From: Mobula hypostoma
Taxonomy: Eukaryota
Direction: 5' to 3'
Assembly: GCF_963921235.1 (NCBI RefSeq)
Contig: NC_086107.1
Span: forward strand, 96,040,001-96,104,000
Length of the DNA stretch: 64,000 nucleotides
The notes under the pieces were generated by a model. It saw only the letters and a list, made by a program, of their open reading frames with translations. It ran no database searches and was not told where the DNA came from. Positions 10,350 through 64,000 of the stretch are shown one piece after another; position 1 is the first letter of the stretch, and the number at the start of each line of letters is the position of its first letter. The position numbers were made by a program, and so were the translations under genes.

Positions 10350-13300
10350 CCTTTCCCCGTTAACCCTGCTCAGGGTCCGATGTCAATTTTGCTCTCTCCC
10401 CTCTCAGGTTCTCCTCAAATTTAGAGAGGTGACCCTCTCCTTGCCGGTAACAACGCGCACGGAGAGCAGTGCGGCACACGGACAAACTCTCCCTGAAACC
10501 AACGCCCTTCATTTCTCGGATCCGCAAGCCCGCGCGAAAAACAATCTGTAAAAGCCCAGATGTTCTGCACTGGCCGCCATCTTGGTTTGGAACCTGTTGA
10601 AGATGGTTCGGGTCGCCCGCCATGTGCAACACAAAGATGAGTTCTGAACGTTAGTGCCCGCGTGTGTGTCGGCAAGGGTTCGGGAGTGGGCGCTTTGGAA
10701 TCAAACAAGTACTGATTACAGCCTTTCTTGTGAAGCAGAAAGTATTTGAAGGGAAAGGAGGCGGCTCCATCGAAATTGTGCCGTCGGCCACCTAAATGCT
10801 CAAGCGGATTGTCCGCGGCGCTGAGGAAGAAGGCGGCTGTGGTCGGCGTGATGTTTGCTGGAGGGAAACCGAGCTGAACGTGAACCACGGCGACCTGGCA
10901 ATTGTGGACGTCGCTGCCAAACGACCCAGACCGGGTAGGGCTCAGTGTTACAAGGTGCTGGTGTTGGAGGAAGGGAAGTGCGGAGGTTCTAGCTAAGGAT
11001 GTAAATGTAGTGGTGTCTTTCTATATAGGGGAGGTGAGAGTCGTAATTAAAGTTTATTCGATCACCAGTTGGAGAGAAGGAAAAGAAAGGGCAGCGTTTA
11101 TATAAAATTCAGAGGATGGTGGGAATGGAACTGAGAGACGGTTTAAAGGGAGGGAAGACGTTGTACTCACACCTTTACGTGTTGGACAATAATTCCTTGT
11201 TCAGAATTAATAAGCACGATTCGGCATTTGCAGGGAATGCACTTGTCAATACCCGGTATTGTTTGAATTCAGTTCATATGAGTTGCAGAGGAAATGTCTA
11301 ATTGCTCAATTAAGATCCTTGGGACAGAAATAGATGTAAAGCTCGTTAAGATAACACTTTCTGAAAAGCATAAGACATTACGATATTATTTGAGGGAATT
11401 TCGTGGGTATTATCCTCGTTCCCTTGCTCCACTTTCCAATTTCGTAATCCGCCTCATGTTCTGTCAGTCGCCATTAAACTTTGCAAGAAAAGCTTTAATA
11501 CGTTTGAGTGAGAGGCCTTGGAAAATAATTATCTGAAGAAAATCTTTGGAAATTTATTTTCGGCTGGATATGGGGCATGCTTTGCTCTGCTGATGTGTGG
11601 ACATCTGAGACGGTGGAGAAGGGCGGGGTTCCGCCCTAGCCGAATCCTGAATGTGTTACTGAGGAGGGCTTTGGGGCTGGACTGGGATGTGTAGGTGAAA
11701 GTAATCTTCACAATGCTCCCTTCGCAAGATGCATCTCAGTCCAAGTTTATGGCTGAGGGAGAGTGAACCTGACGGAGGGGAAGGACGAGGCCGGGTAGGC
11801 AGAGTTTCCCTATCTGTATGGCTCAGCGCTCATTTTTCTAGCTGGTCAGTAAAGTCTCCCCTGCCATGTCGGAGGGTCACAGCGCTGCAAAGATTCTTTC
11901 AGGCACTGACTCGAGTCTGGAAATATCAGTCCAAGGACAGGAGAGGGCAAGAATTGCGCCGTCTGTTTGCAGTTCCCGTGTCCTGCTGTGGTGCGTTGCT
12001 CCTGCAAAGTTCCCGAAATTCGGGTGATTTGAGTTCTTAGGAAGGAGAAAGGGATTTCCAATCGATAGATTTTTGTAAAAAGCAACAATGGGTTTGTGCT
12101 TTCCCAGATAGAGAGTCAGTTGCAGCCGTTCACGTCTGTTTTAAAAAAAAAATTTCTGTGCGATTATAATTGAGTGGTTTTGCTGGATTTTAAAGATTTA
12201 AGCCACGAACTTGGTTTCCACAGGTTGTCAGATTGCCACCTTAATTTGTTTTGTTCAGTCTGTGCTTCTCTCTGAGTTTTCAAACATAGCAACTGAATAG
12301 CTGCCTCGGTGGCTTTGCTCTCTGTCTGATTCCTATTCTGCATTAGCTGCAGAAGTGAGAATGTCGCAGAAATCTGTGCCTAGCGAGAAGTTGTAGGACA
12401 GCAGTGGGGATTCATCACAGTAAGTAGTCCAGGGCTGGGTACGGTAGCTTTTGGATTTTCTTTTTTGTCAATCTGAAACTGACCCCACTCCTCACCAACC
12501 TGCCCCCATCTAAACTAAAACTTTTACCCAAGGGTTAGGATCAGGGGTGTGGGACCTGTTTGTTTCTGTATTGAGATTATGTCTGCGTGGGATTGAGATC
12601 ATTTGCTCCGGACAGTGCGTTTAGTTGCTCTATAAAGTCTCCCTCGCTTTATTGGAGGGTTACACCTCTGCAAAGATTCTTTCGGACAGAGAGCTCATCA
12701 AAGGAAAGGAGAGGGGCAGGAATTGCGTGGTCTTGTTTGCAGTTTCTGTGTCCTGCAGAGCTGGTATCTCTTTAGCTTGCATTTAAGATGAAGGCAGGAA
12801 ATTACCAAATTCCCAAAATTGGATAGAAGTGAAATCTTGGGAGAGAGGAAAGACTTTCCCAATCTCCATATTGGTAAAAGACAGCAATGGGCGTGTTTGC
12901 CCGCTTCTCCGGCTGAATGCGGAGATACAGCCGTGCACCCCTCTATTCGTTCTCCGTGTGAATATTGTTCTTTGGCTGCGCTGGCTGGCCTGGATTTTAA
13001 AGATTCGCGCCGTGTCTGCGCAGGTTCTCGCACTTTTTTAACAGTTCACATTGTGCTCATTTTTTAACAACGGCCTGTTGCTCCTCCGCTCGCTGCTGAG
13101 CTGACGGTGGGTACGGAGTGGGTGCAGAACTATGGGGCATTGCAGTGTGATCTGTGACACGGATTACGGTGCAGGGCGCAACCCGTTTCAGATCCCGGGC
13201 ACCGGGTTTTGTGCAGCGCGGGAGGTGCTTGTAATCCTAATGCATTGTAAGTCTGTATTTGCCCACCGTGTATTGAATCGTTTCCGTGAAATAATTAACC

Positions 13301-13750
13301 TTAGGAACCAATGGACCTTCTGGGGTCTTGTCTCTGGTGAAATTATCCTTGGCCAAGGTGGAGACCTGACCGACTCTCCTTTTTTTTGGTAACGAGGAGC
13401 AGAGAGATGTGTGCACAATCGGCCCTTCGGCCCACTGTGTTTGCGCCGCTCATGATTTAACTTGTACATCCACGTTTGATGCGAAGCCCCCGAACTCCCT
13501 CATGGCTGCGACCTGGCGCAGATGGCAGAGAGCAGGCACTGACTTTGGTTGAGCTCAGATGGGACAATTGGGCCCAAGGCACGTTATTGGGTGGAAGGCC
13601 TGGGGCTGCGGGTGGCGACGGCTGCGAAGGAACAGTGCGTGCAGCTTGGGGCTTGGAAGGGGGAAAAGGCGAGCGGTGATAGTCTGGTTGGTTCTTTTAA
13701 AATGTTTTTGTCTCTCTGTCTACAAAGAGTCATTATTTTCGGCCGAGACC
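10350..13750 (+). promoter_or_regulatory. CpG-rich, TE-free region; candidate CpG-island promoter or first exon of a non-coding transcript
   Basis: Many CpGs retained relative to its paralogous copies. YY1-like GCCGCCATCTTG at 10573-10584 and a donor-like GT at 10935. No recognisable protein. Strand is inferred. Confidence 0.45.
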
Positions 13751-16380
13751 CTTTATCTAGTTCCTGTGCTCAATGTTCAACTAACCCTTGTTATGCAATG
13801 TGTGCAGAGATGAAGGGCATTGCAGATGAATTTGTGGTGCGGACTGACAGCGCAGGATGCAGGCAGGGAGGGAGCTGACTTTGGATTCCTGGGCACCAGG
13901 GTTGGTTCTCCAGTGCATGAGCAGGGACCATTGTGATTTTTGAATTGGCACCCAGTTGCTTTGCAGATCTGTATTTGCATGCCATCCATTGGGTCATTTC
14001 AGCCCTGCACAGGGACTGAAATGCCTTAAATGGCAGCAGCTTTCATTTAGCATTCCTGCCTCCACTTTCAGGCAGTTAAAATTGCCTTCCTCTAATTTGG
14101 AGAGCTTCCTCTCTTCCCCCTGGTAACAATGAGCACAGGGTGCAGTCTTTCATATGAGCAAGCTCTTACTAAGCCTATGCAAAAAAAAAACCTGCATGAC
14201 TTACTGGGGAAACAATTTATAAAAGCCCTGATTTGCCAGATTTTCAGCACGTGCTATTTAATTTTTACTTTTCACCATCTTGGTTTGCAACCTGTTAAAG
14301 ATGGTTTGGTTTTGGTAGACAAAGATTTGGGTTACCCACAATAGGCAACACAAAGATTAGTTTTGAACTTTAGTGCCTGTGCATGTGTTGTCAGGGGTTT
14401 GGGAGTGGGCGCTGTGGAATAAACCTGGTGTTGATCACAGCCTTTCTTGTGAAACAGGAAATGTTTAAAAGGACAGGATGCAGCTGCGTCAAATTGTGCT
14501 GTCAGAGAAATCATCGAAGTCCCAATTTGTGGCGCTCTGGAAGAAGGCAGCTCTCGTTGCAGTGATGTCTGCGGGCAATCCGAAGAGAAACCGAGTGGCA
14601 CCTGAACCACAAAGATGTGGAAATCTGGACATTGGTGCAAATGTATGACGCTGGCCAGGTACGTCTAAGTGTAACACATTGTTGGCTTGGAAGGAATGAG
14701 GTGACGGACATTCTAGCCAAGCAATCACTTAAAATTGAAGATTTTTCTGAAATGGTGCCTTTGTATAATGGGGAGGTGAAAGTCATAATTTAAAAACTCC
14801 ATCACTCTGGTACTGAAGTTTGGAGAAGGAAAAGAACTTTCCAACTGATCCGTACAATACTACAGCCTGGTGACGACATTCTTTGCCATCATAATGCCGC
14901 CAACATCCACATCATCTCATTGTACCTGCTGTGTCCATTAATCACTGGACATTAATCACAGATGTGCAATCAATCAGCAGAACATCCTTTCACTAGTACC
15001 GTCTGCGCCCGTACCTCCCTCTCCCCCCCCGCCCACAACTTCACCATGTCAATTTTGGACCTTGTTGACCATCATATAACCGCACTGACTTGTGTAACTC
15101 TTTAGTCGAACTCTTTGTAAACTCGGCCCCAGCCCAGCAGTTGGGGCCTGTGTGACCACTGGGCACAAGGCTCGATAGTGGGTGGAAGGACTGCGGTGCT
15201 GGTGGTGGAGAGGGTTGCGAGGGAACCATGGGGCTTGGAAGGGAAGGAGAAAAGCGAGCATATTGCTTTGCTGTCTGGTTGGAGCTCTTCTGCCACAATT
15301 GGCAACACAAAGATGACTTTGAATGTTAGTGCCTGCGTGTGTGTGACAGTGGTTTGGGAGTGGGTGATGTGGAATTAATATAGTATTGATTACAGCCTTT
15401 CTTGTGAAGCAGGAAACATTTGAATGGCAAGGAGGCAGCTCTGTAGAAGTTGTACCATCGTTCATCTAAATCCTCAAAGTCACATTTGGTGGTGCTGTGG
15501 AAGAAGGTGGCTGTCATCGGGGTGACGTTTGCTGGAGGGAAACTGAGCTGCACGTGAACCACGATGATCTGTCAATTCTGGACATCGCTGTGAACATACG
15601 ACGTTTGAGTGAGTGGTCTTAGAAAATGATTATCTGGTGCTGCATTTGATGAAAACCTTTGGAAAATTATTTTATGGCTGGAGATGTGGGAGATGCACTG
15701 CTGATGGGTATTGGGATGTCTGATACTCCAGAAGAACGGCAGGGTTGTGTCATTGCCGTTGCCTGAATGTATACTGAGGTGGGGCTTTGGGGCGGGGGGG
15801 GGTGTTCAAGGTGCAAAATGTCATCATCATGCAGCCATGCAGATGCATCACAATCCAGGTTTATGGCAGAGGGAGGTGAGGAGTAGGCAGCAGCTACCTG
15901 ACGCCAGGGGTACCTCTGCTCACTGCTGAGCTGACATGGGTTATGTAGTGGGTGCAGAAATAGGGTGGTCTTGCAGACAAATCTGTGGCGTGGCTTGACG
16001 GTGTGACAGGCTGGCTTCAATTCCCTGGGCACTTGGCCCTGTTCTGCAGTGCAGGAACAGGGACCCTCACAATTTGGTGGCTGCACTCTTTTGTTTTGTA
16101 GGTTTTTGCATTTGCCCACCTTTTCCTGAACCGTTTCCGTGAATGCATTCCGTTTGCCCTGCTCAGTGACCAGGGTACCTTCAAATTGCAGATTTTATTG
16201 AGTTGTTGTCTCAGAAGTTGGTGAAATTACCCTTCCTGAACAGATCTCCCCTCCCTTGTAATGAGGAGCAGAGAGCAGTCAAGCACTGGAATGGCCTTTC
16301 AGCCTACTGTCTTTCTGCTGACCACAATATTGATTGAAACTTGCACATCAGTGCCTGCTCGTGGCCTGTACCCTCAATTG
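10570..16380 (+). repeat. Mosaic of diverged direct duplications (modules A x3, B x2, C x2, D x3, E x2)
   Basis: Approximate module positions. A: 10573-11090, 14273-14835, 15303-15595. B: 11497-11770, 15597-15880. C: 11830-12260, 12615-13050. D: 13080-13470, 13765-13985, 15912-16370. E: 13565-13695, 15157-15285. Shared anchors include cagcctttcttgtgaa, ctgcaaagattcttt and gggtggaagg. Confidence 0.85.
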
Positions 16381-16429
16381 CCCGCTGGTTTCACATGCTC
16401 TGTCACAGTCTCCTCCCTGTCACCTCAAT

Positions 16430-16960
16430 ATCCTCTTGTTTTTATTGGTGAGATTGGAGGGCCATTAAATACCAGGATAGCAGAACACAAGAGTGCTTTG
16501 AAAAAACTTGAGAGCAGAATGAAGCGGGATTGCTGAACTCTTCCTATCATGCTCATGTAGACCAAGGTTTGATGAGGCCAACGACCTTGGCAAGGAAGAA
16601 AATTCCTATACGAGAAAGATTAAGGAATCACTAAAGATGGAGCATGTGGGGGACCTAAATATAGGTTCAAAGAGTGTAGGGATAGCACCAGCCTGGGTAC
16701 CGCACATTCCTAAAAAGGATTTGGCCAGAAAGATTGACCGATTCAAACTAACCAATCAAGAATAGGCAGTTCAGATCCAGCCAATCAGGATCAAGTATTA
16801 AGCCCCACCCATGCCCTGTTCACTTGAGAGGGCATATAAGGTAGTGTCTTCAGGGAGATTTGTCACTTGATGAACTTATGCCTGAGGAAGATGGTTGGGT
16901 TTACCGTTGAAGTGCTGCAATCAGATCTCTAAGTATGTGACTATTAAAGGCCAAAGGATA
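16430..16960 (+). mobile_element. Second-family Penelope-like fragment (GIY-YIG) with CCAAT/TATA boxes and a hammerhead relic at about 16881-16915
   Basis: FIGEIGGPLNTRIAEHK (YIGETGR..RxxEH motif) and RKIKES. ccaatc twice, then gcatataagg, then CTGAGGA-aGATGGT..ACCGTT-GAAg. Confidence 0.7.
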
Positions 16961-17911
16961 GTATGGATAGTGTTGTGACTCAACAAAAGCCACTGGAGAG
17001 GCACGTAACTGGTAGCATAAAAGTCTATTTGGCACACACAAGCTGATAACATTTGGAGTGGCTCTGGAGAGAGGTTCCCTGACCCAGCATTACATCACAT
17101 GTTTGCTAAAGATCAAAGGTTACAGCAGGATGATTGCTATAGTTACAATGCATTCATAATGCTTCCTTTGAGGTGCATATAATTTTCAGACACCTAGATC
17201 TTCACATGAGCATTCTCAAAATGAATGCTAATCACCATCATCTCTGAGCTGCATTCATACATGTGCAGACATCTCAGGTCATTGGAGTGTTTCCTGGTTT
17301 GCAATCAATCGCAGTCTGCAGCTCCAAGACCATTGTTATGAGCTGCATTTTAAATTTAATTTACAATCCACATTCAGATCTGAAGACTTGTTGGAATTAC
17401 TAATTTGCTATATTCAATAACCTCAGAATACACTCTAACATTTCCTCTTCTTGGCCCTCCTGGACAAAAATAATTTGTTCCGACAAAGGCCAATCAAATA
17501 GGGCAACTGTCATGGAAATACGAACAAAGAACTTAATATTCTGTTTATTTGAATTCCCGGTGCTGCACTTATCATTGAAGTTATTCTCAACTTGCATCTG
17601 CATTCTTAAGTCCAGCAGCTCCTGAGTGGTCACATATCCCATCATACATTAGTTTTAACTTTCTTTTCCAATCTTTTTATTAATATCAAAATGTTAAACA
17701 TAACATAGTATTAGTTCAAAGCTATTAGGATTACATTGTTAATAATTAGCATATATAAGTATAAACTCAGTTAACACACAGATATTAAACCTCCCAAAAC
17801 CTTACAGAATATGAATATAAGGAAAAAATGCAGAAGTAGCATGAAATAAGAAAAGAAAAAAAAATACTGTTTAATACTGAAAAGAAAATTAATCTAAACA
17901 ATACTAATCAA

Positions 17912-20900
17912 CTTTTTTATTTCAAAATGTACTTTATTCAAAAATAAAATTATATACTAATTATATTCAATGACTTAATCCTTTACATACGTTTCCCTTA
18001 TGGTATCTAGATATCCATACGTTGGCCACCCACGTGGCAATCCATTGGTTCACCTTCCCACAACATTGTTAAGGGGTATACTCCCTGCCACCCGACCCCT
18101 CCCACTCCCACGGGTGGAGAAACCTATACTGTGGTCCTTGCCCACCGGGCCCTTGCGGTGGTTGCACCAAGTTTCAGTGCGTCCCTCAGCACGTACTCCT
18201 GCAGCCGAGAATGTGCCAGTCGGCAGCATTCTCCCACAGACATCTCCATGTGCTGGTAGATCATCAAGTTTCGGGCCGACCAAAGAGCGTCTTTCACCGA
18301 GTTGATGATCTGCCAGCAGCACCGGATGTTGGTCTCCATGTGCGTCCCCGGGAACAGCCCGTAGATCAGAGAGTCCTCTGTTACGCAGCTGCTGGGGATG
18401 AAACATGACACTAGCCCGTCCATCCTCCTCCACACCCTCTCTGCGAACTGGCAGTGTGCAAAGAGGTGTGTCACAGACTCCTCCTCACTGCAGTCCTCCC
18501 GTGGGCAGTGGGGTGTAGAGGCAATGTTCTGGGTGTACAGGAGGGATCTGACTGGGAGGGCCCCTCTCACCGCCAGCCAGGCGAGGTCTTGGTGCCTGTT
18601 GGTGAGATCTGGCGATGAGGCATTTTGCCAGATGAACTGGACAGTCTGCTCAGGGAACCACCCCACTGTGTCCATCACGTCTTTCTTTCCTTCTTTCTTT
18701 TTAAATCTTTTTATTGAATTAGTACACAAAGAGCAACCAATACATTGTTAGGATATAAATGTAAAAGTAATATTAATACAAAAAAAATACAAACAACGTA
18801 TGTTAATTATAGAATAACAAGGTAATATAATTGTATACTAATTTTCATATATACCTAATAGAACGAACCCCCCACCCGCCAAAAAAAACCTACCGTGCAA
18901 CTAACCTAAGAAAGCAAAGTATTGGGCTAACTAGGTATATACTAGACTTTGAACAGTTAAACAATCGCGTCCTCAAACCCGAGCTCTGCTAATAACAGAT
19001 AAAATCCACAAATGGAGTGTAAATATGGTCAGAGAGAAAAAAATAGTTACATTAAATGAAAATATTGAATAAATGATCTCCAGGTCTGTTCAAATTTAAC
19101 TGAAGTATCATAAAGATTACTTCTGATTTTTTCCAAATTTAAACACAGTATCGTTTGAGAGAACCAAAAAAATGTAGTTGGGGCATTAATCTCCTTCCAA
19201 TGTTGTAGAATACATCTTTTCGCCATTAAAGTAAGAAATGCAATCATTCTACGAGCTGAGGGGGGTAAATTACTGGAAGTTTTAGCTAATCCAAAGCTAG
19301 CAGTAATAGGATGGGAAGAAATATCACTATTCAAAACCTTTGAGATAATATTAAAAATATCTTTCCAGAAAGTTTCCAGAGTTGGACAAGACCAAAACAT
19401 GTGGGTCAAGGAAGCTATCTCCCCATGACATCTATCGCAAAGAGGGTTAATATGAGAGTAGTAGCGAGCTAATTTATCTTTAGACATATGTGCTCTATGG
19501 ACAACTTTAAATTGAATTAAAGAGTGTTTGGGACAGATAGAGGAAGTATTAACAAGTTGTAAAATATAGGCCCAGTCCTCAGCCGGGATAGTAAGACCCA
19601 ATTCCCTTTCCCAGTCAGTCCTAATCTTGTCGAATGGAGCTTTCCTAAATTTCATGATAATATTATAAATAGTAGCCGTTACACCTTCCTGAAACGGGTT
19701 AAGGTTAATGATAGCGTCTAAACTATTTGTGGGGGGTAACGCTGGAAAGGAAGAGTATGGTATTTAGGAAATTTCTTACTTGCAAATATCTTAAAAAAAA
19801 ATGTGTTCTTGCTAAATTGTATTTATTAGATAACTGTTCAAAAGACATAAGGGAGCCATCTGAAAATAAGTCAGAAAACCGTGATATACTATTAGTCTTC
19901 CAAATTTGAAAGGCACAGTCTGTAGCGGAGGGGAGGAAAAAATATATTGCCTATAAATATATTAAATATAGGAATCGCTAGCACAAGTTCATTAAGATCA
20001 AAAAATTTTCAGAATTGAAACCAGATACGTAAGGTACATTTAACTATCAGGTTGCAAACCTGCTTATACCGTTTCAAATCGGAAGGATCCTAATGTAGAG
20101 CCAAGTGCATAGCCTTGAACAGATTGTAATTCCAATACTACCCATTTAGGAATGGACAGTGTATCTTGGTCAAGTAACCAAAATTTCGTGTGTCGAATAT
20201 TAATTACCCAATAATAAAATCTAAAGTTAGGTAATGCCAAGCCTTCATCTCTCTTAGCTTTCTGTAGATGTATTTTACCCAACCTTGGGTTTTTATTTTG
20301 CCAAATAAATGAAGAGATTTTAGAGTCTACTTTATCAAAAAATAGATTTTGGAACAAAAATTGGTAATGCCTGAAATATATATAAAAATTTTGGCAGAAT
20401 GAACATCTTAACAGCATTAATATGACCAGTCAAAGTTAAAGTGGAGACCATTTAAAGGAAAGTTGTGTGATATGGTCAATTAAGGGTAAATAATTAGCCT
20501 TAAATAAATCCTTATGTTTACAGGTAATTTTAATCCCAAGATATGAAAAATGATTATTAACCAATCTAAATGGCAGGTTCTGATATAAGGGAACTTGCTT
20601 ATTAATAGGGAAAAGTTCACTCTTATTAAGATTTAATTTGTATCCTGAAAAAAGACTAAATTGGGCTAATAAATCTAGAGCTGCTGGGATAGATTTTTGA
20701 GGATTGGAAATATGTAAGAGTAAGTCATCAGCGTAAAGTGATATTTTATGAGACTTTAACCCACGAGTTGTACTAACAATGTTAGGCAATTCTTGAATAG
20801 CAATTGCTGGTGATTCTAATGCTATATCAAATAATAAAGGGCTAAGAGGACACCTTTGTCTGGTACTTTGAAATAGAGGGAAAAAAAGGTGAGTTTTGAG

Positions 20901-47862: not shown

Positions 47863-47959
47863 TCGTACCTTCTTTAGCAGAGGATATTTCCTCTAAGGAT
47901 AATGGCTCATTCAATTTATGTTTGAAATCAGAAGAAAGTTTAGGAAAATTTAAACTATT

Positions 47960-48596: not shown

Positions 48597-50921
48597 CTAT
48601 TTAAAAATTGCATAACAGTAGTATTACCATAAAGGATTCAGAGGTATAAAGTTGAGAATAAAAATTCCTGAATGTATCATTAATTTCAGAATGGTCCATA
48701 GTAATATTCCCATTACTCATTCAAATTTTAGTGATGTGTTGTTTTGCTTTAGAACGTCTAAGTTGGTTAACTAAGGACGTAGCAGATTTATCCCCGTGAA
48801 TATAGAACTTACTTTTACTGCCCAAAAGTTGGCGTTCAACCGGGTAAGTAGAAATAAAATTAAATTTAGTTTGAAGTTCCATTCTTATACAACTCTGGAT
48901 CCTTGACCTGGGCATATAATTGGTCTATGGCTTTAATCTGATTGATCAATTCTAAATGTTCTTTTTGAGTCTTTCTTTTCAAATTTGCTGTATAAGAAAT
49001 TGTTTGACCTCTTAGATATGCTTCCATTGCATCCCAAACAACCTGACTTGAGGTTTCAGGTAATGTATTAGTATTTAAGAAGAAAATTATCTGATCCTCC
49101 ATAAATTTTACAAAGTCGTTATCCGACAACAAGATCGGATTAAAACGCCAGTGTTTATTTACTTGAGGGAGACCAGGAAAAACTATAAACAATGTAAATG
49201 GGGCATGATCTGAAATCAATATACTCTTATAGTCACAGGAACGGACAGATGGAATCAACTGATTATCAATTAAAAAATAATCGATTCTAGTAAATGTATG
49301 GTGTACTTGTGAGAAAAAAAGAGTAATCTTTTTCATATGGATGAAAAAAATGCCAAGTATCAGATACTCCATAATTGGAAAGAGAAGATTGAATTGATAA
49401 AGCAGATTTACTTAATTGTCTAGGGATAGAAGAAGATCTGTCCAAGACTGGATCCAACCAACAATTGAAGTCACCACCCAGTATAAGAGTATGAGCTTGG
49501 TTCTGGCAATGAAGAAAAAAAATGGTTTAAAAACCCTACATCATCCAAGTTAGGAGCATAAAGGTTGGCTAAAACTACCCGTATATTATTAAGTTTCCCC
49601 GAAACAATAATAAAATGACCATTAGGATCAGATATCTTATTATGAAGCTCGAAAGGAACATTTTTGTTTATAAGAATTGAAACGCCCCTCACCTTGGCTT
49701 GAAAAGTTGAATGAAAATGTCGTCCTGCCCATAAGACAAGAATTATCTGAGTAATGAATATGTATTTCTTGTAAAAAAAACACTACCTCTGCTCTAAGCT
49801 GTTTAAGATGTGCGAACACCCTTCCCCTTTTAACTGGATGATTCAAATCCCTAACATTCCAGCTTACAAAGTTCAACAGACTAACCATTGGACATTTAAA
49901 AAAAAGGAGAACAGGCATTAAACCATACCTGAAATTTATATGTCAACTCTGGGGCAAAGGTATAGAAGAAAAAATTACATCCTATATAGTGCAAATATGC
50001 CAAAATTCCATATATAATATTAGCATTGGAGTTTCCACCCACACCCTCTAAACCTACAGCAAGAAAGCTGCAAATATAAAGCAGCAAGCTCTCCCCTAGA
50101 AAAACTAACCCCCTATTGAACTTCCAGTTAGGTAACATCTTAGTTATCTCCACTCCAACAGTTAATACAGTAATGAAAAACACCAAAAAGCTTTAAGAAT
50201 TGTAGACTAAAATTAACCTTAATAAGAAAAACAATACATTCAAAGTTTATGAATCTTAAATATGATAATTATCTAAAAAGAACTTTACCCCAACCTACCA
50301 GCTAGAATTGATAAACGAAAAAAGATAATCTGTAAACCCAATTATATAGAAAAAAAGCTTTAACATCCAAGTAAGTAATCCATCTGAATCATAAAAATAA
50401 GAAAAACATAAATAGCATCTTGAAACACAGGGGAAAAAAAAGCCAAAGGAAGATCCATTCGAAAGGATTTTTGATCCAAACCCGAAACTGAATTTAAAGG
50501 TACAGCATCAACTGCTGTTTAAAGTTAAAATAATCTAACTGGAGAGAAAAAAAAGTTCATTAAATTTTAAAGAACTAAAATTATGAAAGATAGAAACTAA
50601 TATTGAGAAAATGGGAAAAAAACACTTCAATAGGACAATGCAACATAATTAAGCCACTAATTAATTAAATGCAACATCAGCTTCATTTAAAAATTTTTTT
50701 AAATCTAGATTTTTAGAAAATGGAGACTGAAGTCTGGAAAAAAAACAGGAAACAATCCAAAGGAGATGTCACTTCATGAATCGATAACAATTTCTTAATG
50801 CGACACCGACTCCATTTTGAAATGAAATCTCCAAAGACCTTTAAAAGGTGTCTAATTACATAATTTCACAATCAGCTCTATTTAAGAAAAGTGAAAATGT
50901 CCGTACTGAAAAATAGAAATC

Positions 50922-53900: not shown

Positions 53901-55222
53901 AGGGAGAACGTTTGAAAAGTCTTGGCGTGGACTAATCGCTTCCCTTGCAAGTCAACCAGCAGGCTGTGGGCTCGTAGAAAATCTGCCCCCAGCAGTGGTT
54001 GGGCCACGGCGGCCAGTGTGAAGTCCCACGTGAACCGGCTGGAGCTGAACTGTAGCCGCACCGTGCGGGTGCCGTAGGTTTGTATTGTGCTGCCATTAGT
54101 GGCCCTCAGGGTGGGTCCCGGTTCTCTGTTGTGGGTGTCGTAACTCGTTGGAGGTAAGACGCTGATCTCCGCTCCGGTGTCGACCAAAAAGCGGCGTCCC
54201 GACTGCTTGTCCCAGACGTACAGGAGGCTGTCCTGATGGCCAGCCGCCGTAGCCATCAGCGGCGGCTGGCCCTGGCGTTTCCCGGGAATTTGCAGGGCGG
54301 TCTGCAGCGGCGGGCCTCCGTGCCCCACCGCTGGTGGTAGAAACACCATTGTTCGTTGGGCTCGCGGCTTGGTGATCTGTGCGACGGATGCCCCTCTCTC
54401 TTTCCTGGCATTCCACAGCACATCTGCTCGGGCCGCCACCTCCCGGGGTTGCTGAAATCTGCGTCGGACAGCAGCAGGCGTATGTCCTCGGGCAGTTGCT
54501 CTAGGAACGCCTGCTCAAACATGAGGCAGGGTTTGTGTCCTTCAGCCAGGGCCAGCATCTCGTTCATTAATGCTGACGGCGGCCTGTCTCCCAAACCATC
54601 CAGGTGCATTAAGCGGCGTGCTCGATCGCGCCGTGAGAGTCCGAAAGTCCTTATGAGCAGGGCTTTGAATGCTGTGTATTTGCCGTCCTTCGGGGGCGAC
54701 TGTATATTAAACTCCTCAACTTGTGCAGCAGTCTCCTGGTCGAGGGAGCTCAGCACGTAGTAGTAGCGAGTGGACTCCGAGGTTATCTGCCGAATGTGGA
54801 ATTGTGCTTCTGCTTGTTTGAACCATAAATGGGGTCGCAGCGTCCAGAAGCTTGGCAGTTTTAATGAAACTGCGTGAACAGATGCAGCGTCGGTCATCTC
54901 TGGTCCAAATATCGTTTGGGCCGTTGGGGTCACCAATTGTAGCGATGTGCTACACACAGCGCTAGAATAACCACACGGAGTCGGTGAGTTAGAGTTGCGA
55001 TGAAAGAGATTTATTCAAACTTCGCGGCCCGCTTTAAAGCCTTCCCGTTCCCGCCCTCCCTGGGCGGGACTACTGTGGGGAATGCATATTCCCAGACCCT
55101 TTCCGCGCAGGATTTTCCCCCTGCTGGTGAAGATGGCCTGGCGCCCTTTTTGCTGCCGGCCCTCTGCCTGCGCGCGCTGTTTCGTGAGCCGGTTCGTGGG
55201 TGCCAGAAAGTGGGTCGCCACA
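50922..55222 (-). mobile_element. Full-length Gypsy LTR retrotransposon (gag-PR-RT-RH-IN), with frameshifts and stops
   Basis: 285-bp LTRs at 50922-51206 and 54938-55222 (about 6 differences by eye); TSD aatc; tRNA-Trp PBS; G-rich PPT. Motifs LVDTGAEIS, YLDD, TVDASN, TDHKPL, HNLAH..CMQC, SDRG, NGLVERFH, YEGPF. Confidence 0.97.
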
Positions 55223-55340
55223 AATCCATCATATTGAAATATATTGAATTAAATTGATAATAAAAAGATAAAGATTAGAATATTAGAAGAAAATAATAAA
55301 GGAAATAACTGTAATCTAAAAAGGCTGAAAAGAAAAAATA

Positions 55341-56144
55341 TCATATCATATCTGAGGAACTCGAAGTAGCAGATAGGCTACCAATGAAGGTCTGCGCCTC
55401 TGCAACCAAATGGAAACGTTTAAAATCGCCGTTCTCCAGCTTGATTCTGAGCCGGGCTGGATAGACAAGAGAAGGATGAAGTCCACTATTGTAAAAAGCT
55501 TTCATTACTCCTCTGTACTCAGCGTGTTGACTGATAACTTGAGGTGCATAGTCCTCTACTAAATGGATAGCTTGACCTTTATATTGAAGCGTTTTACGTC
55601 GGTGAGCTTCCTTAATTAGTAAATCCTTGATTTGGTAATGATGGAGGCGAATTACCACTGGACATGGTCTCTGGCCGTCCACTGGGCGAGATGTAAAGAT
55701 ACGATGCGCTCGATCGATCTCTGGAGGACTGGAAAGTATTTCACTTCCAAAAATCGCACATAGAAAGTTCGAGAAAAATTCAACAGGAGATCCACTTTCA
55801 ACAGCCTCCGGCAAACCGAGAATTCGAAGATCTTTGCGTCTACTCCTGCTTTCAAGATCCATAACTTTAAGAGTTAACTTGCTATTGTACTCTTTTAGGG
55901 TAGAGCAAACTTTTTCCAGCTCTTTACAATGACGATCTAACTTCTCCATAACTTCTTCAACATGTGATAAACATTGAGTGTGATTCTCCAGTGTAGAGTT
56001 AAGTTTATCCAGTTTCAATTCCAACGAACCAAGTTGGGAAAACATATCCTTTCGGGTTTGTTCTAACAGCAACACAATTTCACTCAAGGCAGCTCCCGAT
56101 GGAATGTCTTTTTTTGCCGATTTAGTAGTCTTAGGTATACTCAA
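55341..56144 (-). CDS. L1 ORF1 protein (coiled coil-RRM-CTD), open frame of 267 aa, start codon uncertain
   Basis: Uninterrupted frame with L1 ORF1 motifs. Confidence 0.75.
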   Translation of the reverse strand: MSIPKTTKSAKKDIPSGAALSEIVLLLEQTRKDMFSQLGSLELKLDKLNSTLENHTQCLSHVEEVMEKLDRHCKELEKVCSTLKEYNSKLTLKVMDLESRSRRKDLRILGLPEAVESGSPVEFFSNFLCAIFGSEILSSPPEIDRAHRIFTSRPVDGQRPCPVVIRLHHYQIKDLLIKEAHRRKTLQYKGQAIHLVEDYAPQVISQHAEYRGVMKAFYNSGLHPSLVYPARLRIKLENGDFKRFHLVAEAQTFIGSLSATSSSSDMI

Positions 56145-56270
56145 TGTGCAGCCAGCAGATTCAATAGCGGGAGGAAGAGTAAGAAGTAAAATAAAAGAAA
56201 GCAGGTATATGAAATGGAGTGGAGCAATATTTTTAGTGACTTAAGCTATCTCCATCTTAACTGGAAGTCC

Positions 56271-59299: not shown

Positions 59300-60395
59300 C
59301 TTTGTAGGATTTTATTGTACTTTCCTTAGCATCACAGTCAAATCAGTGCAGGAGGCTTCATGCAGGTCGGAGTGCAAGAGATTTAAATACAGGAACTTTC
59401 GTGGGACTTTTTGTTTTCCTTGGCGTTGGGTCGATTTGGTGTAGGAGGGCCTCACAGTTCAGCAAATTCAAACAAAAATAAGGCAGGGACAAGCAGAACA
59501 GCCATTGTGTGAGTAGACCAGAGTTAGAGTGGGGAGGCTTTGGCTCATCAGGCTTGGGCAAAGTATGTATCTGGTAAGCTTATTCTATTCATTCTTCATT
59601 CTTTATATTTTAATACATAGAGCTGTGAGGATGTCTTCGAGTGCTGTGTTATGTTCTTTGTGTGAGATCTGGAAATTCTAGAATACCTCCAACCTCCCAG
59701 ATTAACACAGCTGCACCGGGCGCACTGAGCTGCAGCTCCTCGGAGAACGTACTATGGAACTGGAACTGCAGCTCCTCAGAGGATGTGTTGGGGAAGTGGA
59801 ACTGCAGCTAGATAATCTTCAGCTCATACGGGAATCTTTGGCTTATACGGGCTCATCTAGTGCTGTAGCTCAGAAGGGAAGGGTGGGGGAGAAGAAGACT
59901 GTAGTGATAGGGGATTCCATAGAGTAGATTCTGTGGACATGATAGACACACCCAGATTGTATGTTGTGTCCCAGGTGTTAGGGACATGGACATCTTGGAT
60001 TGGGTCCACAACATTCTAGGGAGGCTGATTAGCCAGAAGTTTTCTTATATATCTATCTATCTATCTTCTTTATTTATGGAGATGCATGGCAGAATAGGCC
60101 TTCCCAACCCTTCCAGCTGCGCTACCCAGCCACCTTTAATTTAATCCTAGCCTAACCACTGGACAATTTACAATCACCAAAAACAACCTATGTCTTTGGA
60201 CTGTGGGAGGAAACCAAAGCACCTGGAGGAAACCCATGCGGTCATGGGGTGAATGTACAAACTCCTTACAGACCGTGGTGGGAATTGAACCTAGGTCACT
60301 GGTACTGTGAAGTGTTATGCTAACCACTGTGTTACCATGTATTGGTACCAATGACTTAGATAGGAAAGGTGAGGAGGTCCTGAGGAAAGAATTCT
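59300..60395 (+). mobile_element. Old CR1 5'/ORF1 fragment
   Basis: CSLCEIW.., VIGDSI and IGTNDLDRK remnants homologous to 31848-32500. Confidence 0.7.
60065..60338 (-). mobile_element. tRNA-derived V-SINE (HE1-like)
   Basis: Minus strand: A box cagtggttagc, B box ggttcaattcc, and V-domain-like gggtttcctccaggtgctttggttttcctcccacagtccaaagac. Confidence 0.75.
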
Positions 60396-60673: not shown

Positions 60674-63600
60674 TGTTACGTACCCCGTAACTGGGTTGCC
60701 AAACCAGCAGAAATGGATCACTCAGTTGGAGTCTGGAGTACTAGAACTAAGAAAGTTTTATTAAAGAAACAAGCAACACAGTAATCGAAAGGATAATAAA
60801 TGCAACAATTCAACAATGATAACCACACATGTGCACAGAATTAAGATAACAGCATCAATCAAGCTCTATCGTTGTCTAGGGGTAAATGACCAATTTCAAA
60901 ATGACTCAAAGTTCAGTCCAGTTTGTAGTTCAGTTCGCAGTAATCGTTGCCATGGCGATGGACAAGGTGGGGAAGAGAGACATAGAATAGGAACAACTCA
61001 TCATTCAGCACAGCTTCACTCACAGACCAGCGAGATGGCTCACAAACAGCATTTGGGCGGGTCCTTGGTGATGTCACCTGAGGTCACCGACTGTGACCCC
61101 TCCTCCAGATGCGGTCGATCCTCTGCAGTGAACCCGGCACCCAGGCAAGGGCGGACACACACCGGGTTCCCGCTGATCGTACCTTTCCACCCTGGTCGTT
61201 GTCTGGCACTTCTCACCCACTCGTGAGAAGCGTACCGCTTCCAGGGTCTCGTTACCTCGGGTGGCGTGTGTGTCTGTCTTAGCGAACCTGTCCCTTTTTA
61301 TCCCCCTGCTGGGGTATCGCCTGTCCATCACTTCAAACAGTTCAGGGTTCAAAGGGGGGAGCCGCTCCAGACAGCTCTTCCTCCCACATCCCTTCATTAC
61401 ACATCTCCAGACGCTGCTCCATTGTTCCTTATCTCTCCTTCCCCTGAGGGCAGGTGGCAGACCAACTGCTGATGCCACTGATGCTAGCCCAGGCCAGCAA
61501 ACATCTTAATTTTATGTGTATTCTCGTAACACTTCCCCCCTTTAAGGATTTTTACCGGGAGGTAAAAATTACAAACATGACTACATTATCTGATACATAC
61601 ACAATATACATCTTTAACAGTTATTTAGCTAATACAGAGAATTTGAAGCTGTCAACACCTTGACAGACAGTCATCACATTTTCTGTTCCTTTTACACGTG
61701 TTATTAATAATCCCTTAGACCAGGCTCCAACTCAGCAAACTTCATAGTGGCCAAAAACACTGATGAATTGCGACCAATGTAACCTCTCATTTGGTTTTTG
61801 TCCCGGACCACAACAACAAGGGTCGTCCCATTCCGACTCAATTTTCTCTCGCAAGGGCTTAGTAGGAGGGGGACGGGTACTGACCGCAGAGTTATTGCAA
61901 AACTTCCTGCAGTACCCCACCATCTCCAAAAGCCTTCTGAGGGCCCTCTTGTCTGTCGGGGTTGGGAGGTCAGCGATAGCCTGCACTGTAGCTTGCATCA
62001 CTGCCAGCTGCCCCTGTGTCACCACAATTCCCAGGTAAGTGACATTCGTGTGGCCGAATTCATTTTTTCCAAGGTTCACTATCAAGCTGGCTTCAGACAG
62101 CCGTGTTAAATTGCCAATACACACCTCTGTGTTCATCAGCCCTTTAGTCACTGAATTACTCAAAAAATATGGGTGTTGTTTACTTGGCTGCCCTATTGTA
62201 ACAGACATAACCCAACGTCCCAGTTCTTTGCATTTCCTCGGGACAATCAAACACATGGGTGCGAGTCGTTTAATTACTCCTTCGGGGATTAAGGGAGAGA
62301 CCTTATCAGTAGACCTGGCCTAAACAATAGCCTTCTCCCATCTGACCGATCCCATCCTAATCTTTTCAAAATGGTTTTTTCCTCTTATCAAGGGGCCCCT
62401 AGCTTCATTGATTTCCACGCTAACACCGACTAGGTTTGTTAGCATATCAAAAGCCGGTGACCGTCTCAGTTCGCGTCGGTCATGATCAATAACATTCTTC
62501 CCCCTGGGCAGCCGGTAAATCTCTTTCATGATTCCACCAACTGTTTCCTCCAGCACCGCAAAATGTCCACCGGGGGGTACCTCGTGGGCCATGTTAAAAA
62601 CCTCATCCCCATAACTCTTTTGCACCACCCCCCACTCCTCATCTGCGGATGCTGTACTTGATTTCTCTTTCTTCCTTAGCACTTCCTCATCCGCACAATA
62701 GCTTGTCAAGGCTGTGTCAGAGAGAGCGGTCTCGGCAAAAACCATCAGCCCCTCGTCTCGCTCCTGCGTCTGCACAAATTCTTTCCTGGCTACTGCTACG
62801 TCCGTCCCAGCTCCCTCACTACCTCTTATCTCACTACACCCTGTCTCATACAAGGTTGGCAGAAATGTTTCAGCCAAATTCACCATCGCGGGCGGGGCCT
62901 CCATGCTGGCAGGCTGACCCGTCAATCTCACGACTGGGAACACGATTCCTCCGGCGATGTCATTACCGAGCAAGACTTCCACGTCTTTCATCGGTAATTC
63001 GGACCTCACCCCGATCGTGACTAGTCCAGAGACCAGGTTGCTCTGTAAATGTATCTGGTGCAAAGGGACTGACTCTGTCCCTTCCCCAACACCTTTGACC
63101 TCTACCTCCCCAGTCTGGGTCTCTGAGCTAAACTCTAATACACTCTTCAGTATTAGTGACTGACACGCTCCCGTGTCTCTCCAGATCCGCACTGGAACTG
63201 GTTTTAACCTCTTTTTCACTGACACCAGTCCGGCCGAGATAAACCTCTCGCGCCCTTCCTGGACTTTTTCAGACCTGTCCTTCCCTAGCGGTTCGCTTAA
63301 CAGCTCAATACAGCCATTCAAAATTTCCGCTTTTCCTTTCCCCGTCTCCTTCCTTGGGGCAAAGCACCTGGACGCAAAGTGTCCGGCTTTCCCACAATTA
63401 TAACAGACGACCCCAGGAGACTTCCTACCAGACTGCTCCCGGTCTACCTTATCCTTTTCACTAGTCCCCGGCTTACTTTCTGACTTTTCCGGTGGACTCT
63501 CCCCGCCGTCCTGACTACCCTTCTGGTAGCCTTTACTCGGGGCAACCTTCATTTTATGCGTCAACGCATACTCATCCGCTAACTTAGCGGTTGCGGCTAA

Positions 63601-64000
63601 CGTGGCTGCCTCTTTCTCATCGAGGTAGGGTCTCATACCCTCAGGGACACAACCTTTAAACTGCTCAATCAGAATCAGTTGCAGCAGTCTGTCATAATCC
63701 CCCTCTACCCCCTTCGAGGCGCACCAACGCTCACAATATGTTTGCATCTCGCGAGCAAACTCCAAATACGTGCGGTCCCACCGCTTCCTCGCATTCCGGA
63801 ACCTCTGCCGGTATGCCTCCGGGACCAACTCATAAATCCTGAGGATGGCCTCCTTCACCACCTCATACTTCTGGGCATCTTCCGCGGATAAAGCGGAGTA
63901 AGCTTGTTGGGCTTTCCCTTTCAGTACACTCTGAAGTAAGACAACCCACTTATCCCTCGGCCATTCCTGACTTATGGCCACTTTTTCGAAATGGAGAAAG
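60674..64000 (-). mobile_element. Second copy of the non-autonomous Gmr1-like element (3' LTR 60674-61531; runs off the window)
   Basis: Near-identical to about 4340-7686 with the same pol deletions. It has its own TAG stop at 62320-62322, a +1 T near 61795-61799, and no 20-bp LTR duplication. Confidence 0.95.

What the first reader, a model, noticed from the sequence alone, without database searches (positions are those of the whole stretch)
10350..64000. Candidate piRNA cluster or transposon trap: CpG-rich promoter-like island followed by about 48 kb of nested, mostly antisense TEs
Seen: the only long TE-free, CpG-rich stretch (10.3-16.4 kb) is followed by almost continuous TE sequence from more than ten superfamilies, nested three deep. 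Every L1, Tx1, coding RTE, Rex1, Tc1 and Harbinger piece, and every two-LTR element, is on the minus strand. Across the whole window I tally by hand about 40 kb minus versus about 12 kb plus; the main exception is the CR1 at 31.5-35.8 kb. Known: unistrand piRNA clusters (flamenco-type; vertebrate germline clusters) accumulate diverse, often recent TEs antisense to the precursor. Inference: a plus-strand non-coding transcript starting near 10.5 kb would be antisense to most TE families present. An ordinary long intron with antisense L1 bias is the main alternative. The large TEs upstream of the island are also minus-strand, so any transcript may begin left of the window.
Basis: partly seen in the sequence, partly recalled or inferred. 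Interest (0 to 1): 0.8.

Follow-up and report, generated by a model that had tools for sequence, protein, structure and literature searches.

The report
Transposon-dense tract behind a non-coding RNA gene
In a ray genome, a CpG-island promoter drives a spliced non-coding RNA towards about 48 kb of transposon debris, most of it pointing the opposite way; this is the layout of a piRNA cluster, but no small-RNA data exist to show it is more than an ordinary non-coding gene beside a transposon-rich stretch.

Summary
The window comes from a myliobatiform ray (named relatives in Mobula hypostoma). The strand bias is real but modest. I count 14 minus against 6 plus TE insertions in 16.4-64 kb (p=0.12) and 17:6 in the whole window (p=0.035). 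By length it is 27.3 kb against 6.4 kb. All 6 L1-like pieces and all 4 two-LTR elements are minus. The 'island' has no TE domains and holds a formal CpG island at 10391-11000 (o/e 0.91). TE-borne stretches are just as CpG-rich. One result is new. A contig from public run X1 (850 nt, depth 47) covers 10293-10934 joined to 14458-14658 across a canonical plus-strand GT..AG intron. It has no ORF over 56 aa. So the predicted plus-strand transcript exists in one of three runs. It is not shown to run through the TE tract on that strand. Only exact, unstranded contigs reach 26.2 kb, and the first downstream plus-strand AATAAA is at 17943. No small-RNA data were available. My odds: ordinary lncRNA locus beside or within a TE-rich tract about 0.5, unistrand piRNA cluster about 0.27.

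The parts
10391..11000 (.). CpG island (610 bp, GC 0.55, CpG o/e 0.91). It is the strongest island in the window that is not TE-borne.
   Evidence: Sliding-window scan with Takai-Jones criteria. It overlaps exon 1.
10293..10934 (+). Exon 1 of the spliced non-coding RNA. The 5' end is at or near 10293; the contig starts where the upstream CR1 fragment ends.
   Evidence: X1 contig of 850 nt, depth 47.2, with 8 differences in 640 nt. The donor reads ACCGG|GTAGGG. X1 depth in bin 9868-10534 is 20.1, which the contig alone nearly accounts for, so little RNA lies upstream.
10935..14457 (+). Intron 1 (3523 nt), GT..AG, with a polypyrimidine tract before the acceptor.
   Evidence: The tool reports the joint as 10932>14457 with one letter in between. 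Read against the sequence, it equals 10934|14458 with one mismatch at 10933. X1 depth inside the intron is 0-1.3 (bins 11202-13869).
14458..14658 (+). Exon 2 (201 nt), followed by the donor GCCAG|GTACGT.
   Evidence: Same contig, 2 differences in 203 nt. The splice sites are printed. This exon is the second copy of the repeated exon unit.
15413..15608 (+). Third copy of the exon unit, with acceptor ...GAAGCAG| and donor |GTGAGT. It is a possible exon 3 (inferred).
   Evidence: Alignment of the three units, mean identity 77%, with the acceptor conserved in all three. X1 depth of 11 in bin 15204-15870 would fit a 196-nt exon at depth of about 37 or less. No joint was listed for it.
16048..17698 (.). 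Low-copy stretch transcribed in X1 only, strand unknown. It is a possible terminal exon: an acceptor-like ...ctgttctgcag| lies at 16049/16050 and the first downstream plus-strand AATAAA is at 17943.
   Evidence: Two overlapping exact contigs (525 and 1146 nt, 0 differences, depth 10-11).
18127..18747 (-). GC-rich LINE 3' fragment (zf-RVT).
   Evidence: Pfam zf-RVT, E=1.4e-10.
19050..24300 (-). AT-rich L1-like element 1, nearly full length: ORF1-like, endonuclease, RT and zf-RVT, all in broken frames.
   Evidence: Pfam zf-RVT, RVT_1 and Exo_endo_phos. The ORF1-like part matches ORF 55344-56240.
24422..24913 (-). Tc1/mariner transposase fragment.
   Evidence: Pfam DDE_3, E=1.1e-9.
26517..27486 (+). 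Fragment of the same LTR family as element 28910-36475, in the opposite orientation.
   Evidence: Inverted matches of 79-86% identity to 29520-30148.
27894..28909 (-). L1-like ORF2 C-terminal fragment.
   Evidence: 31% identity over 235 aa to the zf-RVT ORF 19050-19763, E=8e-32. The Atlas lead to zf-RVT clusters agrees (low recognition, so a lead only).
28910..36475 (-). LTR element with PNMA-type gag and RT remnants. Its LTRs are about 90% identical. The plus-strand CR1-like element is inserted in it.
   Evidence: LTR pair 28910-29575 / 35786-36475, 89.6% identity. PNMA domain at 30933-31274. RT remnants at 29851-30462.
31767..35623 (+). CR1-like LINE (esterase-type ORF1, endonuclease, RT), nested in the LTR element. 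It is the main plus-strand exception.
   Evidence: Exo_endo_phos and RVT_1, E=1.6e-33. Weak OSK hit. It is 72.5% identical to the minus-strand copy at 177-1542.
38219..44291 (-). L1-like element 3 (RT 38219-40066; endonuclease and ORF1-like 42412-44291). An insertion block at 40.07-42.4 kb splits it.
   Evidence: RVT_1, E=2.5e-36, and Exo_endo_phos. Homology to L1-like element 1 and to the ORF1-like ORF.
40062..40657 (+). BEL-like gag fragment (DUF7041) inside the insertion block.
   Evidence: Pfam DUF7041, E=3e-17. It shows 52-67% identity to the gag of element 50918-55222 on the other strand.
40802..41890 (-). PIF/Harbinger transposase fragment inside the insertion block.
   Evidence: Pfam DDE_Tnp_4, E=5e-15.
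44792..45561 (-). Further L1 ORF1-like fragment.
   Evidence: 32-35% identity to ORF 55344-56240, E down to 1e-17.
47238..47873 (-). LTR-retrotransposon RT fragment.
   Evidence: RVT_1, E=1.4e-33. It is 41% identical to the RT of element 50918-55222.
48724..56240 (-). AT-rich L1-like element 2 (ORF2 remnants 48724-50192; ORF1-like 55344-56240). The BEL-like element splits it.
   Evidence: 40-54% identity to the endonuclease and RT-linker ORFs of L1-like element 1. The Atlas lead is L1 ORF1 (Transposase_22), score 0.95.
50918..55222 (-). BEL-like LTR element with 289-bp LTRs 97.6% identical. It carries gag(DUF7041)-protease-RT-RNase H-integrase in several frames, is CpG-rich (o/e 0.77), and is nested in L1-like element 2.
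59629..60141 (+). CR1 5'-region fragment.
   Evidence: Inverted relative to the minus CR1 at 2403-2579 and direct relative to the plus CR1 at 32063-32419.
60674..64000 (-). Second copy of the young SCAN-gag Gypsy element, cut by the window end. It is 98% identical to the copy at 4340-9134, and its flanks are not shared with that copy.
4340..9134 (-). Outside the claimed interval: young SCAN-gag Gypsy-type element with 879-bp LTRs 99.9% identical and a 4-bp target duplication. It holds one 937-aa ORF with SCAN and zf-CCHC only.
   Evidence: Its relatives are in ray genomes.

Best explanation
This is an ordinary Pol II non-coding RNA gene lying at the edge of, or running into, a TE-dense, LTR-rich tract. 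SHOWN: a CpG island at 10391-11000 carries the 5' exon. In the sample behind run X1, RNA starts at about 10293 and is spliced on the plus strand (10934>14458, GT..AG). It has no reading frame. Its exons come from an old, threefold tandem duplication of one exon-bearing unit that kept its splice sites. INFERRED: the mature RNA uses two or three such exons and probably ends in the low-copy stretch 16.05-17.7 kb, near the first plus-strand AATAAA at 17943. Some of it may run on into the TEs as a long intron or as read-through. On this reading the excess of long minus-strand TEs needs no small-RNA function. It comes from chance in a small sample (14:6 events), together with the usual loss of sense-oriented L1 and LTR insertions from transcribed DNA, because those carry splice and polyadenylation signals.
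For: The spliced plus-strand contig, the clean intron and the X1-only expression are; sequence context is. The CpG island coincides with exon 1. The RNA is non-coding: 7-10 stops per frame, longest ATG ORF 56 aa. The 199-aa minus-strand ORF over exon 1 has no homologue at E<=0.01 among 154 candidates. Pfam gives 0 of 47 island ORFs with a family and Rfam gives 0 matches. The plus strand of 10293-17698 has 1 AATAAA (inside intron 1) against 7 on the minus strand, and the next plus-strand one is at 17943. The event-count bias is not significant inside the claimed interval (p=0.115 and 0.096). The bias sits in long L1-like and two-LTR elements, the classes most strongly antisense-biased in ordinary genes (PMC1794541, passages). 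Batoid genomes are 61-66% repeats, so a TE-dense 48 kb is not rare (bioRxiv 10.64898/2026.10.27.761883, passages).
Against: The three upstream TEs (1-10.29 kb) are also all minus, although X1 shows little RNA there. Selection within this transcription unit therefore cannot explain the whole bias. L1-like pieces are 6 of 6 minus (p=0.031, a subset chosen after the fact). LTR-derived DNA makes up about 28% of the window, against 2.7-4.7% of batoid genomes, and two independent insertions of one very young Gypsy family lie 56 kb apart in the same orientation. That enrichment resembles a trap. Exact X1-only contigs at 23307-23896 and 25400-26215 (depth 7-8) hint at locus-specific RNA well beyond 17.9 kb. 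The plus strand of the TE tract carries 41 AATAAA, so an ordinary transcript would not be expected to cross it. That fits a short gene but leaves those downstream contigs unexplained.
Confidence: 0.5

Rival explanations
1. This is a unistrand piRNA cluster (TE trap). The CpG-island promoter drives a plus-strand precursor whose 5' exons are spliced, alternatively, onto a long body that reads through 18-64 kb or more. Because most long TEs there are minus, processing would yield piRNAs antisense to L1-like, Gypsy/BEL-type, Tc1 and Harbinger families. New antisense insertions of active families would be kept.
For: TE DNA antisense to that RNA totals 27.3 kb against 6.4 kb in sense. The antisense set includes very young elements: the second Gypsy copy is 98% identical to one with 99.9% identical LTRs, and the BEL-like LTRs are 97.6% identical. 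Several unrelated TE kinds are nested in one place. LTR share is about 28% against 2.7-4.7% genome-wide. Exact X1-only contigs reach 26.2 kb. A cartilaginous fish (elephant shark) has the cytoplasmic piRNA pathway genes apart from Pnldc1, and most axolotl clusters are uni-strand (PMC7618676, passages). From recall, with no call behind it: the flamenco precursor also starts at a discrete Pol II promoter and is alternatively spliced at its 5' end.
Against: There are no small-RNA data of any kind, so no defining feature has been tested. The strand of the RNA beyond exon 2 is unknown, and I could lay reads only on 9.2-29.2 kb. The event-count bias is not significant in the claimed interval (p=0.115). 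The bias continues upstream of the promoter. Six plus-strand pieces exist, one of them a 3.9-kb CR1. The plus strand of the TE tract carries 41 AATAAA hexamers. Axolotl clusters have a median length of 10 kb and cover 0.13% of the genome, so the prior for any given 50 kb is low. One MYB-type site (YAACKG) lies by the island, against a window background of 1.5 per kb, which is no enrichment.
Confidence: 0.27
2. The exons are 5' non-coding exons of a protein-coding gene whose coding exons lie beyond the right end of the window. On this reading the TE tract is simply its long first or second intron, with the usual antisense bias.
For: CpG-island first exons followed by very long early introns are common in vertebrate genes (general knowledge). 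The antisense LTR and L1 bias matches intron behaviour.
Against: No plus-strand ORF in the window has a non-TE Pfam domain (322 ORFs scanned). The low-copy stretch 16.05-17.7 kb is transcribed without a visible splice. There is no annotation or genome to look further.
Confidence: 0.13
3. The transcript and the TE orientation have no link. On this reading the TE tract is silent, repeat-rich DNA. Its orientation skew is chance, or a regional insertion bias such as LINE integration favouring one strand relative to replication direction (recalled from work on human L1; no call). The spliced contig may even come from a near-identical paralogue elsewhere in the genome.
For: The exon contig differs from the window at 10 of 843 positions, while four other X1 contigs (525, 1146, 591 and 447 nt) differ at none and a fifth (377 nt) at one. 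The bias extends upstream of the transcript (3 of 3 minus). A 17:6 split has p=0.035 before any correction for having chosen the window.
Against: X1 holds 22% of the island's sampled 31-mers exactly. The exact contigs next to the exons show that this very locus is transcribed. The differences may be allelic. The replication-linked bias reported for L1 is weak (recalled) and would not act on LTR elements or DNA transposons.
Confidence: 0.1

Closest known systems
flamenco-type unistrand piRNA clusters of Drosophila (recalled; no call)
   Same: A discrete Pol II promoter, 5' exons spliced onto a long body, and a body filled with nested LTR and other retrotransposon remnants that lie mostly antisense to the transcript, some of them recent.
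   Different: No piRNAs are shown here. The organism is a ray and the promoter is a CpG island. The body holds many L1-like LINEs and DNA transposons, and 6 of 20 insertions are in sense. Transcription through the body is not shown.
Vertebrate uni-strand germline piRNA clusters (axolotl, mouse; PMC7618676, passages read)
   Same: Single-strand layout, sex- or tissue-restricted expression, and TE families such as Harbinger, RTE-type LINEs and ERV-type LTRs among the piRNA sources in axolotl.
   Different: Axolotl clusters have a median length of 10 kb and were defined from small RNAs with proTRAC. Here the candidate is about 48-54 kb and rests on sequence layout plus one unstranded RNA contig set.
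Ordinary lncRNA genes, or long introns, with antisense bias of L1 and LTR elements (PMC1794541, passages read; PMC3088655 and PMC3517506, search listing only)
   Same: CpG-island start, canonical splicing, no ORF, tissue-restricted expression. Long sense-oriented LTR and L1 copies are under-represented two- to fourfold.
   Different: The bias here also covers the 10 kb upstream of the start. LTR-derived DNA is about 6-10 times the batoid genome average.

Membership tests
Unistrand piRNA cluster | Dense, uniquely mapping 24-32-nt small RNAs with a 5' U bias, nearly all from one strand | not testable with these tools
   No small-RNA run was offered. The only runs listed were three sets of Logan contigs of unknown library type.
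Unistrand piRNA cluster | Germline (or gonadal soma) expression and PIWI loading | not testable with these tools
   The runs are coded and their tissues are unknown to me. Expression was seen in 1 of 3 runs.
Unistrand piRNA cluster | One long precursor transcribed from a discrete promoter across the whole TE body, on one strand | tested here: inconclusive
   The promoter-like CpG island and a plus-strand spliced 5' end are shown. Beyond 14.66 kb there are only unstranded contigs, to 17.7 kb and at 23.3-26.2 kb. Nothing was laid beyond 29.2 kb.
Unistrand piRNA cluster | TE content predominantly antisense to the precursor | tested here: inconclusive
   By length, 27.3 kb is antisense and 6.4 kb sense. 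By events the split is 14:6, p=0.115. No genome background was available.
Unistrand piRNA cluster | Many unrelated TE families, including recently active ones, nested into each other | tested here: met
   L1-like, CR1-like, Tc1, Harbinger, SCAN-gag Gypsy, PNMA-gag LTR and BEL-like elements are present. LTR identities are 99.9%, 97.6% and 89.6%. Three nestings two deep are shown.
Pol II long non-coding RNA gene | Canonical GT..AG splicing on a defined strand | tested here: met
   Junction 10934|14458, donor G|GTAGGG, acceptor ...gtgaaacAG|G. The caveat is that the run's RNA nature is the tool's guess. The junction and the empty intron support it.
Pol II long non-coding RNA gene | No conserved or long reading frame | tested here: met
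   The 843-nt spliced product has 7-10 stops per frame and a longest ATG ORF of 56 aa. There are no Pfam hits and no homologues of the overlapping 199-aa ORF.
Pol II long non-coding RNA gene | Defined 3' end with a polyadenylation signal | tested here: inconclusive
   The first plus-strand AATAAA after exon 2 is at 17943. Contigs cannot show RNA ends.
CpG island (Takai-Jones: at least 500 bp, GC at least 0.55, o/e at least 0.65) | All three thresholds met | tested here: met
   10391-11000: 610 bp, GC 0.55, o/e 0.91.

The most novel reading that the evidence does not exclude
This would be the first piRNA cluster located in a cartilaginous fish. It would be a flamenco-like, single-strand transposon trap with a CpG-island promoter and duplicated, alternatively spliced leader exons, still capturing active Gypsy-type and L1-like elements in antisense orientation. 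That would show the trap design to be ancestral to jawed vertebrates.
Probability: 0.25. Interest if true: 0.6.

Novelty: new member of a known kind. Interest (0 to 1): 0.35.

Why it matters
My four literature searches found no paper that maps piRNA clusters in sharks, rays or chimaeras. The hits deal with pathway genes, lungfish, coelacanth or axolotl. If small RNAs confirm this locus, it would be a ready-made, well-delimited example for asking whether TE-trap clusters predate the split of cartilaginous and bony vertebrates. If they do not, the locus is an ordinary lncRNA gene in a transposon-rich region. It would then be a useful warning: strand bias read by eye in one 64-kb window (14:6 events) is weak evidence on its own.

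Tried and rejected
(1) The window's own genome is not held, so I could not compute a genome-wide background for TE density or strand bias.

I used ORFs of 90 aa or more (173 ORFs). I then added 149 of the 220 ORFs of 62-89 aa. I left out 52 inside already annotated elements and 19 in 1-4.3 kb. Only 2 weak hits were added.

(3) No RNA holder was listed as RNA on record, and no small-RNA or raw-read run was offered. X2 and X3 have next to no cover on the island. I do not count that as evidence either way.

(4) Rfam at gathering thresholds gave 0 matches, and ARAGORN found 0 tRNA-like genes. No known small-RNA gene or tRNA-derived SINE was recognised.

(5) A MYB-type site (YAACKG) as a hint of an A-MYB-driven cluster: one site at 10357 and one at 11066, against 1.5 per kb across the window. 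There is no enrichment, so I rejected it as evidence.

(6) A minus-strand coding gene in the island: the three repeat units keep open minus frames of 81-199 aa. However, an 8-nt indel shifts the frame in unit 2, and there is no Pfam hit and no homologue. Rejected.

(7) The junction as a genomic deletion between repeat units: the two ends are not homologous positions of the units (a donor end joined to an acceptor start), so unequal crossing-over does not fit.

(8) Earlier notes of this scan hold nothing on this genome or this sequence. One note, on another genome, did not bear on this case.

(9) The search was badly framed and returned ray papers that do not mention piRNA. I draw nothing from it.

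(10) The labels Tx1, RTE and Rex1 could not be tested because no TE reference library was available.


Full report
WHAT THE WINDOW IS. No whole genome is held for it. I searched the protein database with the largest intact ORF (937 aa, 5394-8204, minus strand). The closest named relatives are uncharacterised proteins of Mobula hypostoma (87-93% identity). After them come Mobula birostris, Hypanus sabinus and Hemitrygon akajei. The window therefore comes from a myliobatiform ray. Batoid genomes are 61-66% repeats: about 29% LINEs in mobulids and 2.7-4.7% LTR elements (bioRxiv 10.64898/2026.10.27.761883, passages read).

CHECK OF THE OBSERVATION: TEs AND THEIR STRANDS. I scanned all 173 stop-to-stop ORFs of 90 aa or more against Pfam. 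I then scanned 149 of the 220 ORFs of 62-89 aa. I left out 52 that lie inside already annotated elements and 19 in 1-4.3 kb. Twenty-five of the long ORFs carry TE-type domains, 21 on the minus strand and 4 on plus. These ORFs are not independent, so I grouped them into insertion events. For the grouping I used LTR pairs and inverted matches and an all-against-all blastp of window ORFs. The blastp also gave a strand to several pieces that have no Pfam hit.

In 16.4-64 kb I count 14 minus events:
- a GC-rich zf-RVT fragment
- four L1-like elements or fragments, plus one further ORF1-like piece
- Tc1 (DDE_3)
- Harbinger (DDE_Tnp_4)
- a PNMA-gag LTR element
- an LTR-type RT fragment
- a BEL-like element
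- a small CR1 fragment
- a weak RT hit
- the second copy of a SCAN-gag Gypsy element

I count 6 plus events:
- the 3.9-kb CR1-like element
- an LTR-family fragment at 26.5-27.5 kb
- a BEL-like gag fragment at 40.06-40.66 kb
- a weak Tc5-type HTH
- an LTR fragment at 46.48-46.59 kb
- a CR1 5' fragment at 59.6-60.1 kb

By length this is 27.3 kb minus against 6.4 kb plus, and 71% of the 47.6 kb could be oriented. Upstream of the island all three events are minus (7.7 kb).

The statistics are modest. The split 14 of 20 gives a two-sided p of 0.115, and 13 of 18 firm events gives 0.096. The whole-window split of 17 of 23 gives 0.035. None of these is corrected for the window having been chosen for this feature. 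Nesting two deep is shown three times: CR1 in the PNMA-gag LTR element, the BEL-like element in L1-like element 2, and a Harbinger/BEL-gag block in L1-like element 3. Nesting three deep and 'more than ten superfamilies' could not be verified.

CHECK OF THE OBSERVATION: THE ISLAND. None of the 47 ORFs in 10.35-16.8 kb has a Pfam family. Depth in runs X2 and X3 is 0-7 there, against hundreds to thousands over the TEs. The stretch is therefore low-copy. CpG o/e per kb is 0.32-0.75. One segment, 10391-11000, meets the Takai-Jones criteria with o/e 0.91. The young LTR elements are equally CpG-rich (50851-55230, o/e 0.77), so the island is not the only CpG-rich stretch. The island is not plain unique DNA either. 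It consists of old tandem duplications of 67-81% identity. Among them are three copies of a unit of about 200 nt flanked by a conserved splice acceptor and a donor.

THE NEW EVIDENCE: A PLUS-STRAND SPLICED RNA. One search for public runs returned three coded runs from one study and species label. The tool guessed them to be RNA, and X1 holds 22% of the island's sampled words. I laid all three on 9201-29200. X1 has an 850-nt contig of depth 47 that covers 10293-10932 and then 14457-14659, with one letter in between. Read against the sequence, this is a junction 10934|14458 with one mismatch at 10933. It runs across an intron that begins GTAGGG and ends with a polypyrimidine tract and AG. That is a canonical intron on the plus strand only.

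The intron is empty in X1 (depth 0-1.3). This, together with the junction, argues that X1 is RNA and free of genomic DNA. The two ends are not homologous points of the repeat units, so a deletion allele does not explain the joint. Exon 2 (14458-14658) is followed by a good donor (GTACGT), and the contig stops 3 letters later. The third unit (15413-15608) could be a further exon. The depth of 11 in its bin would fit this, but no joint was listed for it. The 843-nt product has 7-10 stops in every frame and no ATG ORF over 56 aa. The long minus-strand ORF across exon 1 has no homologue. X1 depth in the bin that contains the contig's start is almost fully explained by the contig, so little RNA comes from further upstream. 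The 5' end lies near 10293, at the edge of the CpG island.

One caveat applies. This contig differs from the window at 10 of 843 positions. Four other X1 contigs (525, 1146, 591 and 447 nt) differ at none and a fifth (377 nt) at one. It may therefore come from the other allele or from a close paralogue.

HOW FAR THE RNA GOES. X1 alone has exact contigs over 16048-17698 (depth 10-11), 23307-23896 and 25400-26215 (depth 7-8). Contigs carry no strand. The last two lie in repeats that are also expressed, as families, in X2 and X3. On the plus strand, 10293-17698 has a single AATAAA (inside intron 1) against 7 on the minus strand, and the next plus-strand one is at 17943. An acceptor-like site precedes 16050. 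A compact four-exon lncRNA that ends near 17.96 kb is therefore a fair reading. Downstream, the plus strand of the TE tract carries 41 AATAAA, 16 of them in the AT-rich L1-like element alone. An ordinary transcript would be unlikely to cross this. I could lay reads only once, so nothing is known beyond 29.2 kb.

WEIGHING THE READINGS. Several points favour a piRNA cluster:
- A discrete promoter faces the tract.
- The leader exons are spliced and non-coding.
- Expression is restricted to one run.
- The antisense excess is 4:1 by length and includes very young elements.
- LTR-derived DNA makes up about 28% of the window, against 2.7-4.7% genome-wide.
- Two independent same-strand insertions of one young Gypsy family are present.
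- Cartilaginous fish have the cytoplasmic pathway genes, and uni-strand clusters dominate in axolotl (PMC7618676, passages).

Several points count against it, or are neutral:
- No defining feature (small RNAs, PIWI, germline expression) could be tested.
- Event counts are not significant inside the claimed interval.
- Ordinary transcription units show two- to fourfold antisense excess of LTR elements (PMC1794541, passages).
- The bias continues upstream of the start, where this RNA cannot be the cause.
- Clusters cover of the order of 0.1% of a vertebrate genome (0.13% in axolotl), so the prior is low.

My odds are as follows:
- about 0.5 for an ordinary lncRNA gene beside or running into a TE-rich tract
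- 0.27 for a piRNA cluster
- 0.13 for leader exons of a coding gene whose body lies outside the window
- 0.10 for no link at all between the transcript and the bias

COMPARISON AND NOVELTY. The layout works like flamenco (recalled, no call) and like vertebrate uni-strand clusters, but membership is untested. Four literature searches found no paper that maps piRNA clusters in any cartilaginous fish (listings and abstracts seen, and passages of PMC7618676 read). If confirmed, this would be a new member of a known kind in an unsampled lineage. If not, it is an unannotated lncRNA locus. The supplements of the papers cited were not opened.

VERDICT. Interest is 0.35. A gonadal small-RNA library would settle the question.

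Noticed in passing
window 4340-9134 (and second copy from 60674): Very young Gypsy-type element: 879-bp LTRs that are 99.9% identical, TG..CA ends and a 4-bp target duplication. Its single 937-aa ORF has only SCAN and zf-CCHC domains and no protease, RT or integrase domain, so it looks like a gag-bearing non-autonomous derivative that is still moving.
   Followed up: partly
one search hit list (P0008, P0009, P0019, P0049): Relatives of this transposon ORF are named in public annotations as 'phosphatidylserine decarboxylase proenzyme isoform X1', 'trichohyalin-like' and 'axoneme-associated protein mst101(2)-like'. One full Gypsy pol is filed under a Campylobacter sp. assembly. These are probably TE-derived mis-annotations or contamination.
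   Followed up: no
window 10577-11051, 14275-14793, 15293-15603: The exon-bearing unit of the non-coding RNA is present three times (67-81% identity). The splice acceptor is conserved in all copies and each copy has a usable donor. Further pieces of 10.6-13.7 kb recur, condensed, at 15.15-16.14 kb.
   Followed up: partly
window 10573-10583: Exon 1 contains GCCGCCATCTT, which I recall as the core of a YY1 binding site. An inverted AAGATGG follows 20 nt downstream. This rests on a recalled motif and was not tested.
   Followed up: no
window 16240-16765 (+): Two adjoining plus-strand ORFs read ...IGEIGGPLNTRIAEHKSALKK..., which I recall as resembling the GIY-YIG endonuclease motif of Penelope-like elements. 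Pfam gave no hit. If it is real, this would be a seventh plus-strand TE piece, lying inside the transcribed low-copy stretch.
   Followed up: partly
whole window: LTR-retrotransposon-derived DNA makes up about 28% of the window (18.0 kb). That is about 6-10 times the 2.7-4.7% reported for batoid genomes.
   Followed up: partly
window 19000-24000: The L1-like element on the minus strand is A-rich on the plus strand (AT skew up to +0.245). Its coding strand is therefore T-rich. As I recall, this is the opposite of mammalian L1.
   Followed up: no
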